A DNA stretch of 28,490 nt from a virus (Duplodnaviria > Heunggongvirae > Uroviricota > Caudoviricetes): IMG/VR virus record IMGVR_UViG_2585427739_000003, one strand, 5' to 3'. Every line of letters begins with the position of its first letter. Positions within the stretch are counted from its first letter, which is position 1. Below, piece by piece: positions 22,090 through 22,756 of the stretch. Both the position numbers and the translations under genes were made by a program. Under the pieces are notes generated by a model. It worked only from the letters and a program-made list of their open reading frames with translations, was not told the origin of the DNA and searched no databases.

Positions 22090-22347
22090 AGCCTGCTTCT
22101 CCTTGACCTTTCGGTCCGTAAGAGGCTAATCTCTATGTGTCGCATAGATATGGCCTCAGATTAATGTTAAGCGTCTTGCAGGACGCGTAATGTTAACTGG
22201 GGCTTTTCTCTATCTGCCTTTTGGTGTTCATGCCTGAGACAGATAGCCTCAAGCACCCGCAGTCATTCTACTTAACTAAGATTTCCCCGCAAACCGTTTT
22301 TGTCCGGCACAGTAAATATCCAACTAAACCAATGGCGTTCGCTGTAT

Positions 22348-22527
22348 TTACCGCCAGTATTCAATGCACATGACCGCCATGAACACCCCTAAAAAAAGGG
22401 CATTTATATATCCAAATATTAATATCAAAACATCAACTTTTTCCATATACCTTGCTGTGAAGATGATGGGCATACATGATACGAACAACCAGAACGCAAC
22501 AAACAAAAACTGCAATGCGTTTTTCAT
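22348..22527 (-). CDS. Hypothetical small membrane protein (about 59 aa, two predicted transmembrane segments) in an AT-rich island
   Basis: Internal start MKNALQFLFVAFWLFVSC... preceded by AGGAGG. A plus-strand ORF (22364..22621) overlaps, so strand is not certain. Confidence 0.4.
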   Translation of the reverse strand: MKNALQFLFVAFWLFVSCMPIIFTARYMEKVDVLILIFGYINALFLGVFMAVMCIEYWR

Positions 22528-22756
22528 TATTCCTCCTACAATCAATGTGCAATTACATTTAAACACACCTCAATTTGGCCGGACATATAAATATCTAAAC
22601 CAGAAAAAATCACTTACATAGCGTTACAAACTCTTTAGTCTAAATATTCATCGTAAAACATTCCCCATACTTATCAGCCCGTTCTGCGCCAGGTAGCTCA
22701 TTGCCTTATCTGGGAATCTGTAATCAGGTTTCCGGATGCTGGTGGATTTTCGCGTT

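What the first reader, a model, noticed from the sequence alone, without database searches (positions are those of the whole stretch)
22340..22640. AT-rich island with a small two-helix membrane protein next to hok
This 300-bp AT-rich stretch holds overlapping ORFs on both strands. The minus-strand one has an AGGAGG ribosome-binding site before an internal ATG and would give a 59-aa protein with two hydrophobic helices. A small membrane protein beside a type I toxin could be a second toxin, an immunity factor or a superinfection-exclusion protein.
Basis: seen in the sequence. Interest (0 to 1): 0.4.

Follow-up and report, generated by a model that had tools for sequence, protein, structure and literature searches.

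The report
Unannotated small membrane-protein gene beside hok
The AT-rich patch next to the hok toxin gene holds a real 59-codon gene for a two-helix membrane protein that standard E. coli annotation misses; the ORF on the opposite strand is a by-product of it, and what the protein does is still unknown.

Summary
Window 22340-22640 has 35.5% GC against 49.8% for the whole window. It carries a minus-strand ORF (CDS 22348-22527, AGGAGG at 22532-22537, 59 aa, two hydrophobic helices) and an overlapping plus-strand ORF (22364-22621). It lies 90 nt upstream of an intact hok/sok locus in a Qin/Rac-like lambdoid prophage.

The minus-strand ORF is the gene. A second subfamily (41% aa, 59% nt identity) has exactly 59 codons and no indels, and it too is followed by a hok remnant. 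A neutral simulation keeps the frame open in 2.3% of runs, and 0.33% of those reach the observed protein similarity. The plus-strand frame has stops in subfamily 2 and is truncated or start-less in over half of 116 copies chosen by a flanking DNA pattern. The minus ORF is intact in 114 of those 116.

The family is confined to Escherichia/Shigella: 1567 and 1045 of 5426 complete genomes. It was unannotated in all 90 sampled RefSeq rows. It matches no Pfam, PHROG, NCBIfam, PADLOC or PDB entry.

Function is unresolved. hokD-type loci usually lack it, so hok does not need it. This is a new member of a known kind, small prophage membrane proteins. Interest is modest.

The parts
22348..22527 (-). 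CDS of the small membrane protein (59 codons plus TAA): MKNALQFLFVAFWLFVSCMPIIFTARYMEKVDVLILIFGYINALFLGVFMAVMCIEYWR
   Evidence: ORF list. Subfamily-2 homologue of the same length. NG86 dN/dS about 0.23 in this frame against about 0.9 in the frame of the plus ORF. Neutral simulation. Intact in 114 of 116 copies picked by a flanking DNA pattern.
22532..22537 (-). Shine-Dalgarno AGGAGG, 4 nt before the ATG at 22527. A common variant reads AGGGGG.
   Evidence: Sequence. ORF of at least 59 codons plus SD in 0.15% of shuffles. A-to-G variant at 22534 in 55 of 116 copies. In subfamily 2 the upstream in-frame extension is closed by a stop at L206 811-813, so the ATG is the start, not the GTG at 22566.
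22456..22524 (-). Predicted helix 1 (residues 2-24). Holds W13 and S17-C18-x-P20-I21-I22-x-T24, which are conserved between the subfamilies.
   Evidence: AlphaFold2, hydropathy, invariant columns.
22354..22437 (-). Predicted helix 2 (residues 31-58). Holds the conserved L36-x-F38-G39-x-x-N42-A43-L44-x-x-G47-V48-F49 (small-xxx-small spacing G39/A43/G47) and the C-terminal I55-E56-x-W58-R59.
   Evidence: AlphaFold2, invariant columns.
22391..22397 (-). T7 homopolymer run inside codons 44-46, the site of the recurrent frameshift variants.
   Evidence: Sequence. Frameshifted products P0019, P0021, P0024, P0025. One truncated copy in the unbiased 116.
22528..22650 (-). Conserved AT-rich 5' untranslated stretch of the cassette. 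No convincing promoter and no significant RNA structure.
   Evidence: Alignment of mosaic variants: homology starts near 22650. Promoter scan found nothing. Fold z-score -0.76.
22364..22621 (+). Plus-strand 85-aa ORF: a shadow frame of the hydrophobic gene, not a gene.
   Evidence: Its first codon position is the complement of the gene's T-rich second position, so stops are rare (sequence). It has two stops in the subfamily-2 locus and no antisense ORF there. It is 85 aa in only 51 of 116 copies; the rest are truncated or lack the searched start motif. GRAVY is -0.40 and no family matches.
22259..22347 (-). Spacer between the small gene and the hok mRNA start. It holds the likely hok -10 (TAGAAT, 22265-22270). 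There is no terminator.
   Evidence: Sequence. Homology with other hokD loci begins at GTTAAGTAGAAT. No terminator found. Fold z-score -0.67.
22087..22258 (-). hok mRNA leader / sok region
   Evidence: Rfam RF01794, 106.7 bits, E 1.4e-23.
21934..22089 (-). hok toxin CDS (51 aa)
   Evidence: Pfam HOK_GEF, E 1.2e-23. Annotated hokD in RefSeq.
21848..21865 (-). Intrinsic terminator after hok, the first one downstream of the small gene
   Evidence: Terminator scan.

Best explanation
SHOWN. Window 22348-22527 (minus strand) is a genuine protein-coding gene that RefSeq does not annotate. It encodes a 59-residue protein made of two hydrophobic helices joined by a 6-9 residue polar loop. It lies in a roughly 380-bp AT-rich cassette in the nin-like region of a Qin/Rac-type lambdoid prophage, on the same strand as all early-right genes. 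It sits 90 nt upstream of the hok mRNA start, with no terminator in between. It belongs to a two-branch family confined to Escherichia/Shigella, and both branches lie directly upstream of hok sequence. The plus-strand ORF is a shadow of the gene. A membrane protein has T at most second codon positions, which puts A at the first position of that antisense frame and so suppresses stop codons there.

INFERRED. The positive N-terminus (MK / MRK), the neutral-to-acidic loop and the terminal R59 suggest an N-in/C-in hairpin in the inner membrane. With no promoter of its own detected, the gene is most likely read from the antiterminated early-right transcript after induction, and that transcript would run on into hok. 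Residues conserved inside the membrane (S17-C18-x-P20; G39xxxA43xxxG47 with N42) point to specific helix packing, either self-association or binding to another membrane protein, rather than a passive anchor.

My best guess at the role is an accessory, moron-like factor that acts on the membrane, of the exclusion or membrane-perturbing type (about 0.3). A dedicated Hok partner is less likely (about 0.1). The stated confidence refers to the claim that this is a real minus-strand gene for a small membrane hairpin protein.
For: - Homology: an exhaustive HMMER search finds a 59-aa relative at 41% identity aligned 1-59 to 1-59 (E 3.7e-9). 22 columns are invariant, including W13, SCxPII, FGxxNAL, VF and IExWR.
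- Codon signature between the subfamilies: 180 nt, no indels, identity by codon position 58/72/48%. NG86 pN 0.34 and pS 0.70 in this frame; every other frame has stops or pN about equal to pS.
- Neutral simulation with base-specific mutation: the frame stays open in 2.3% of runs. Among those, pN/pS is at or below the observed value in 2.4% and the BLOSUM score is at or above it in 0.33%.
- Start site: the start and stop positions are the same in both subfamilies, and the upstream extension is closed in subfamily 2.
- Intactness: 114 of 116 copies picked by a flanking DNA pattern keep all 59 codons, while the plus ORF is 85 aa in 51 of them.
- Chance: an ORF this long with a strong SD arises in 0.15% of shuffles.
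- Polymorphism: the ORF is half as polymorphic as its flanks, 11/360 against 42/692 sites, p = 0.037.
- Context: every neighbour is on the minus strand, namely DUF977, DUF7167, hok, DUF968, RusA and Q.
- Link to hok: the subfamily-2 copy is followed 55 nt later by a hok CDS fragment at 81% identity.
- Structure: helices 2-24 and 31-58, hydropathy maxima 2.3-2.6.
Against: - All 13 within-subfamily polymorphisms are nonsynonymous (9 in family 1, 4 in family 2). Under neutrality an earlier count of 11 gives P about 0.02, and the MK-type test gives p = 0.016, or 0.10 without singletons. Recent purifying selection on the protein is therefore not visible.
- NCBI's annotation pipeline (PGAP) leaves the locus empty in all 90 sampled RefSeq rows, 60 for family 1 and 30 for family 2.
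- There are no relatives outside Escherichia/Shigella.
- Frameshift variants at the T7 run exist among the predicted proteins.
- The flanks are also alignable between the two subfamilies, so homology alone does not prove coding.
- No expression data were available, and no promoter was found.
- Function: there are no hits in toxin, holin or defence libraries, and the fold search was uninformative, with every E above 1.
Confidence: 0.78

Rival explanations
1. Neither strand codes. The island is an AT-rich non-coding spacer, for example hok promoter upstream sequence, an H-NS-bound mosaic joint, or a decayed remnant. On this view the ORFs are chance products of a T-rich strand.
For: - An ATG ORF of at least 59 codons appears in 20% of shuffles.
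- A T-rich strand gives hydrophobic codons in any frame.
- All 13 within-clade polymorphisms are nonsynonymous.
- PGAP calls nothing here.
- The flanks are also alignable between the subfamilies.
- The family is taxonomically very narrow.
Against: - The two subfamilies differ at 41% of nucleotides, yet both keep 59 codons with no indel and the same start and stop.
- The frame stays open in only 2.3% of neutral simulations, and protein similarity reaches the observed level in 0.33% of those.
- The codon-position periodicity is 58/72/48%.
- An ORF this long with a strong SD arises in 0.15% of shuffles.
- 114 of 116 copies are intact, while the overlapping plus ORF is repeatedly broken.
Confidence: 0.1
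2. The plus-strand 85-aa ORF (22364-22621) is the real gene, as annotated in three phage GenBank records ('hornerin' or hypothetical protein).
For: It is the longest ORF in the island. Phage records and many GenBank genomes annotate it.
Against: - It has two stops in the homologous frame of subfamily 2, and no antisense ORF of 30 aa or more exists there.
- Its pN/pS is about 0.93.
- Only 51 of 116 unbiased copies keep 85 aa. Of the rest, 40 end at 63 aa, 10 at 79 aa and 12 lack the searched start motif.
- It has no SD.
- It runs against the direction of the whole operon.
- It is hydrophilic and low in complexity (rich in N, K, T and I), as expected for the complement of a T2-rich gene.
- It matches no family.
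Confidence: 0.02
3. The gene is real and is a second membrane-damaging toxin: a type I-like or GhoT-like pore-forming peptide that forms a toxin pair or tandem with hok.
For: - It is 59 aa with two TM helices, the same size and architecture as GhoT/OrtT (from my own knowledge).
- It has a conserved small-xxx-small face with a buried Asn.
- It is adjacent to hok in both subfamilies.
- It has a strong SD.
Against: - There is no Pfam hit to Hok, GhoT or any toxin family, even at E up to 10.
- hhalign probability against Hok is 2%.
- No antisense promoter, terminator or RNA family overlaps it.
- The 5' region shows no structure beyond that of shuffled sequence.
- No protein antitoxin candidate lies next to it.
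- In the chromosomal relic the gene stays intact beside a destroyed hok and with no visible antidote.
Confidence: 0.15
4. The gene is real and is a dedicated partner of Hok: a membrane immunity factor, chaperone or regulator, making a three-part hok/sok module.
For: The order small ORF then hok, on one strand and with no terminator between, is ancestral to two lineages that differ at 41% of nucleotides.
Against: - hokD-type loci occur at 12169 places in 4938 genomes, the small ORF at 1624 places in 1567 genomes.
- In BL21(DE3), O157:H7 and an APEC strain, hok has other upstream neighbours and no homologue of this gene.
- Hok is controlled by Sok RNA (established knowledge).
- Small-ORF alleles vary while the Hok protein is often identical.
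Confidence: 0.1

Closest known systems
Small prophage-encoded inner-membrane accessory proteins, i.e. morons or superinfection-exclusion factors such as T4 Imm and HK97 gp15 (from my own knowledge)
   Same: Under 100 aa and almost entirely transmembrane. Non-essential accessory position in a temperate phage. Carried on a short cassette of deviating GC content (36% against 50%). Patchy distribution among related prophages.
   Different: No sequence or profile similarity to any PHROG or PADLOC model. No promoter or terminator of its own detected, so expression in the lysogen is not evident. No phenotype is known.
GhoT/OrtT membrane toxins (type V toxin-antitoxin system, about 57 aa, two TM helices; from my own knowledge)
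   Same: Size, two-helix hairpin architecture, and E. coli as host.
   Different: No Pfam match at E up to 10. No GhoS-like neighbour. Located in a prophage nin-like region.
Hok/Gef type I toxins (PF01848)
   Same: Small hydrophobic protein, prophage-borne, immediately adjacent and co-oriented.
   Different: Hok has one TM helix plus a periplasmic Cys-containing tail, an antisense Sok RNA and a long folded leader. The small ORF has two helices, no HOK_GEF match, an hhalign probability of 2%, and no antisense RNA signals.
Class II holins / phage 21 S pinholin (PF04971)
   Same: Two TM helices, with a predicted N-in/C-in arrangement.
   Different: It lacks the charged C-terminal tail: only EYWR follows helix 2. 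It is not in the lysis cassette. The prophage has its own P21-type holin (16621-16941), lysozyme and Rz. hhalign probability is 0.4%.
DUF4212 / TIGR03647, the small two-TM subunit of sodium:solute symporters
   Same: Two-TM protein of about 60-80 aa. It is the only library family giving any score.
   Different: Scores are far below the cut-offs: 13.9 bits against 30, and 14.5 against 26. Only subfamily 2 scores. No symporter gene lies nearby. This is most likely compositional similarity.

Membership tests
Hok/Gef (PF01848) | Match to the HOK_GEF profile: single TM helix plus conserved periplasmic region | tested here: not met
   No Pfam hit for either subfamily at E up to 10. hhalign against the window's Hok gives 2% probability. 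The neighbouring 21934-22089 does match, at E 1.2e-23.
Type I toxin-antitoxin module (generic) | Small hydrophobic toxin under 60 aa | tested here: met
   59 aa, GRAVY 1.31, two hydrophobic helices.
Type I toxin-antitoxin module (generic) | Antisense RNA antitoxin overlapping the toxin mRNA, with its own promoter and terminator | tested here: not met
   No promoter-like or terminator-like site on the plus strand in 22300-22700. No Rfam family over the ORF. The 5' region folds no better than shuffled sequence. These are consensus scans only, so a weak promoter cannot be excluded.
Type I toxin-antitoxin module (generic) | Toxicity on expression | not testable with these tools
   Needs an expression experiment.
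GhoT/OrtT toxin family | Match to the family profile in Pfam | tested here: not met
   The full Pfam-A scan at E up to 10 returned only a sub-threshold DUF4212 hit.
Class II holin / pinholin | Two TM helices | tested here: met
   AlphaFold2 helices 2-24 and 31-58.
Class II holin / pinholin | Charged cytoplasmic C-terminal tail, and a position in the lysis cassette next to the endolysin | tested here: not met
   Only four residues (EYWR) follow helix 2. The lysis cassette (P21 holin, lysozyme, Rz) is at 15211-16941. No holin profile hit. hhalign probability 0.4%.
Known anti-phage defence / exclusion proteins (PADLOC, PHROGs) | Match to a defence or exclusion family model | tested here: not met
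   No PADLOC family at E up to 10. No PHROG at E up to 1.
Moron (autonomous accessory cassette in a prophage) | Base composition different from the neighbouring phage genes | tested here: met
   Cassette 22271-22650 has GC 0.361 against 0.498 for the window.
Moron (autonomous accessory cassette in a prophage) | Own promoter and own terminator | tested here: not met
   None found between 22259 and 22700 on the minus strand. The first terminator downstream is the one after hok, at 21848-21865.
DUF4212 / TIGR03647 symporter small subunit | Score at or above the curated cut-off | tested here: not met
   13.9 bits against a cut-off of 30, and 14.5 against 26.05.

The most novel reading that the evidence does not exclude
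The 59-aa hairpin protein is a specificity-bearing membrane determinant under diversifying selection. It would be either a third, protein component that tunes or gates Hok action when the prophage is induced, or an exclusion factor co-evolving with other phages. That would explain three things: its ancestral position directly upstream of hok in two diverged lineages, the conserved intramembrane packing motif, and the fact that all 13 recent polymorphisms change the protein.
Probability: 0.1. Interest if true: 0.6.

Novelty: new member of a known kind. Interest (0 to 1): 0.35.

Why it matters
About 29% of complete E. coli genomes carry this gene, including CFT073, ST131 and O104:H4 strains. Another 19% carry its paralogue. 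RefSeq annotates neither, and some phage records annotate the wrong strand, one of them as 'hornerin'. Fixing this is a small but concrete annotation gain.

The case also shows how a membrane-protein gene creates a long false ORF on the opposite strand. If the protein turns out to modulate Hok or to exclude phages, it would add a protein player to a classic RNA-controlled toxin locus. Nothing here shows that yet.

Tried and rejected
- **Family libraries.** Pfam, PHROGs, NCBIfam and PADLOC scans and a PDB sequence search on both strands' products and on subfamily 2 found nothing above threshold.
- **Fold search.** A Foldseek search of the AlphaFold2 model against viral structures gave only generic helical hairpins, all with E above 1. 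I did not pursue it, because any two-helix hairpin matches any other.
- **Distant relatives.** I searched with k-mer and HMMER methods, exhaustive HMMER on 1.84 billion representatives, one genome per species, metagenomes, and tblastn of phages and plasmids. All returned only the two Escherichia/Shigella subfamilies.
- **L086.** This copy (85.7% nt identity over 553 nt) looked like an intermediate relative. It carries many single-base indels across coding and non-coding parts alike, so it is probably a degraded copy or a poor assembly. I did not use it.
- **First IMG/VR sample.** It was chosen by protein similarity and so is biased towards intact ORFs. I replaced it with a sample chosen by a flanking DNA pattern.
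- **Promoter, terminator and RNA structure.** The promoter and terminator scan found nothing between the small gene and hok, and RNA folding of the 5' and 3' flanks was not significant.
- **Literature.** A search for the peptide strings and for hokD, prophage and small-protein papers found nothing on this gene.
- **Paralogy within the window.** The idea that the gene is a paralogue of the prophage's own S21-type holin or of Hok was rejected by hhalign.

Full report
**Setting.** The window is a Qin/Rac-like lambdoid prophage of E. coli whose early-right genes all run on the minus strand:
- a YdaT-like protein at 25475-25900;
- DUF977 at 23870-24292;
- DUF7167 at 23180-23362;
- hok at 21934-22089;
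- DUF968 at 20434-21492;
- RusA at 20071-20433;
- the Q antiterminator at 19235-20056;
- two tRNAs;
- a P21-type holin, a lysozyme and Rz at 15211-16941.

DicF is at 28026-28077. RefSeq annotation of an identical locus agrees with this order.

**The observation.** It is correct. Positions 22340-22640 have 35.5% GC against 49.8% for the window, and only 1.8% of 301-nt windows are as low. The minus strand carries an ORF at 22348-22566. Its internal ATG at 22527 is preceded by AGGAGG at 22532-22537 and gives 59 aa. The plus strand carries an 85-aa ORF at 22364-22621. The 59-aa product has two hydrophobic segments, which AlphaFold2 models as helices 2-24 and 31-58 with mean pLDDT 73. The neighbour is a full hok/sok locus: Pfam HOK_GEF at E 1.2e-23 and Rfam sok at 106.7 bits over 22087-22258, so the hok mRNA starts about 90 nt after the small ORF's stop codon. 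An ORF of this length alone is not remarkable, since it arises in 20% of shuffles. One with a strong SD at the right distance is rare, at 0.15%.

**Which strand codes.** The two ORFs share third codon positions. The first position of the plus frame is the complement of the second position of the minus frame. A membrane protein has T at most second positions, so the plus frame starts most codons with A and rarely meets a stop. One ORF is therefore expected to be the shadow of the other. Close copies (95% identity or more) could not settle which, so I looked for diverged relatives.

An exhaustive HMMER search of 1.84 billion representatives found one second subfamily (P0037/P0043). It is 59 aa, 41% identical, and aligned end to end. 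Profile-based searches of proteins, metagenomes, phages and plasmids found only these two subfamilies.

The two genes differ at 73 of the 177 compared nucleotides, have no indel, and start and stop at the same positions. Identity by codon position is 58/72/48%. In the minus frame pN is 0.34 and pS is 0.70 (NG86 dN/dS about 0.23). In the plus-ORF frame pN/pS is about 0.93, and subfamily 2 has two stops there. No antisense ORF of 30 aa or more exists in that locus.

I then ran a neutral simulation with the observed base-specific mutation rates:
- The frame stayed open in 2.3% of runs.
- Among those runs, pN/pS was at or below the observed value in 2.4%.
- Among those runs, the BLOSUM score was at or above the observed value in 0.33%.

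Finally, I drew 116 IMG/VR copies using a DNA pattern outside the ORF. The minus ORF is 59 aa in 114 of them. The plus ORF keeps 85 aa in only 51, and elsewhere it ends at 63 or 79 aa or lacks the searched start motif.

In subfamily 2 the in-frame upstream extension is closed by a stop, which fixes the ATG rather than the GTG at 22566 as the start. I conclude that the minus-strand ORF is a gene and the plus-strand ORF is not.

**Distribution and annotation.**
- Family 1 DNA occurs in 1567 of 5426 complete E. coli genomes, all at 95% identity or more. Carriers include CFT073, ST131 and O104:H4 strains. Nothing was annotated under the match in any of 60 sampled rows.
- Family 2 occurs in 1045 genomes, for example JJ1886 and ATCC 25922. 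Nothing was annotated under it in any of 30 sampled rows. In JJ1886 it lies in a decayed prophage relic beside ttcA, between a partial integrase/DUF1627 fragment and uspF.
- GenBank submitters have called either strand 'hypothetical protein'. Two phage records label the plus ORF 'hornerin'.
- No Pfam, PHROG, NCBIfam, PADLOC or PDB entry matches.

**Relation to hok.**
- No terminator separates the gene from hok; the first one is after hok, at 21848-21865.
- The family-2 copy is followed 55 nt later by a fragment of the hok CDS. L206 1063-1124 equals window 22021-21960 at 81% identity, and the hok promoter, leader and 5' CDS are deleted. The order small gene then hok therefore predates the split of the two subfamilies.
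- hok does not need the gene. hokD-type loci occur at 12169 places in 4938 genomes. In BL21(DE3), O157:H7 and an APEC strain the sequence upstream of the hok -10 element is different and holds no homologue.
- Homology between those loci and the window starts at GTTAAGTAGAAT, so the small gene lies in a separate cassette of about 380 bp (22271-22650, GC 36%).

**Selection within the subfamilies (unexplained).** All 13 polymorphisms are nonsynonymous:
- Family 1: V16A, M28I, V31I, I37M, Y40H, L44I, F49S, V52G, M53T.
- Family 2: V6M, S11N, A31V, R33I.

In the same loci hok shows 9 synonymous changes out of 24 (p = 0.039). About 32% of possible transitions in the ORF would be synonymous. An MK-type comparison with the between-family differences gives p = 0.016, but p = 0.10 once singletons are dropped. 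At the same time the ORF is half as polymorphic as its flanks (p = 0.037). The common variants fall on positions that also differ between the subfamilies and leave the conserved motif untouched. This fits a protein with a constrained core and freely varying, or diversifying, hydrophobic positions. Relaxed selection in recently expanded prophage lineages fits equally well. I cannot tell them apart.

**Mechanism.** What is shown is that the gene is real, that it encodes two hydrophobic helices, and the genomic context described above. The rest is inference.
- Topology: the basic N-terminus (MK or MRK), the neutral-to-acidic loop and the terminal Arg suggest an N-in/C-in hairpin.
- Packing: residues conserved inside the bilayer (S17-C18-x-P20; G39xxxA43xxxG47 with N42) suggest specific helix packing, either self-association or binding to another membrane protein.
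- Expression: with no promoter detected, the gene is most likely expressed from the antiterminated early-right transcript after induction, and that transcript would read on into hok.
- Not a holin: the protein has no charged tail and lies outside the lysis cassette, and the prophage has its own P21-type holin.
- Not a Hok relative: hhalign probability is 2%.

My ranking of roles is as follows:

| Role | Estimated probability |
|---|---|
| Accessory factor acting on the membrane, exclusion-type or membrane-perturbing | about 0.3 |
| Second toxin | about 0.15 |
| Hok partner | about 0.1 |
| Something else | the remainder |

**Verdict.** This is a new, narrowly distributed family of a familiar kind (small prophage membrane proteins). 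It is useful for annotation and a reasonable candidate for a small-protein study, but not surprising to a specialist.

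Noticed in passing
L212:1369-1458 (APEC E18006) and the aligned stretch of L211 (BL21(DE3)), just upstream of the hok promoter: In hokD loci that lack the 59-aa gene, a different 29-aa hydrophobic ORF (MLVLKCALAIAAVMAIYCLAVVLMDRLSD) with a GGAGG site sits directly upstream of the hok -10 element. It is unannotated and conserved between two prophages, with 2 synonymous and 5 nonsynonymous differences by my reading of the alignment. It has no Pfam or NCBIfam match. Small hydrophobic ORFs may be a recurrent feature upstream of prophage hok genes.
   Followed up: partly
L207:6190-6369 (E. coli JJ1886, NC_022648.1); hok fragment at L206:1063-1124: The paralogous 59-aa gene (subfamily 2) lies in a decayed prophage relic beside ttcA, between a partial integrase/DUF1627 fragment and a frameshifted metal ABC permease next to uspF. 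It is followed by a hok gene that has lost its promoter, leader and 5' CDS. This copy is present in 1045 of 5426 complete genomes and was unannotated in all 30 sampled rows.
   Followed up: yes
window 22348-22527 and L206:829-1008: All 13 within-subfamily polymorphisms of the small gene are nonsynonymous, whereas hok in the same loci has 9 synonymous changes out of 24. I37M and Y40H change family 1 to the residue found in family 2. This could be diversifying selection, relaxed constraint or chance.
   Followed up: partly
window 22391-22397: A T7 run inside codons 44-46 is a frameshift hotspot. Several predicted-protein clusters (P0019, P0021, P0024, P0025) end in ...FFRGVHGGHVH or similar. These could be real slippage mutants or homopolymer sequencing errors.
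   Followed up: partly
window 22364-22621 (+); ON470612.1 and ON470619.1: Two phage GenBank records annotate the shadow plus-strand ORF as 'hornerin', a mammalian skin protein name. This is an automatic-annotation artefact on the wrong strand.
   Followed up: yes
window 17237-17970: This is the only other AT-rich island in the window as low in GC as the target, and it reaches the lowest GC in the window (0.289 for the 301-nt window starting at 17377). It holds a plus-strand 111-aa ORF (17592-17927) with no Pfam match and abuts the sRNA STnc100 (17953-18142, 131 bits).
   Followed up: no
window 18841-18915 and 19016-19091 (-): Two prophage tRNA genes lie just downstream of the Q antiterminator gene: tRNA-Arg (anticodon tct) and a tRNA with anticodon cat (Met, or possibly Ile2 type).
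   Followed up: no
window 22698-23014 (-): RefSeq flags the gene immediately upstream of the cassette as a frameshifted pseudogene with an internal stop in identical loci. Only an 85-aa ORF (22757-23014) remains open in the window.
   Followed up: no
window 21713-21892 (+): RefSeq annotates a 59-aa hypothetical protein (WP_001112736.1) on the plus strand across the hok 3' UTR and terminator and the end of the next gene. It looks like another opposite-strand call that may be spurious.
   Followed up: no
L086:1784-2318 (E. coli ECMA0423, CP178302.1): This copy of the cassette is 85.7% identical over 553 nt. It has many single-base indels in both coding and non-coding parts, including the hok leader. 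It is either a heavily degraded copy or a low-accuracy assembly.
   Followed up: partly
L002 (phage PhiR42_1, PV340562.1) locus 1451-2764: In this phage an insertion sequence (transposase genes) lies where hok should follow the small gene, and relB, ydfV and flxA lie beyond it. At least 14 of the IMG/VR copies chosen by the flanking DNA pattern likewise keep the small gene and the hok leader but lack the hok CDS.
   Followed up: partly
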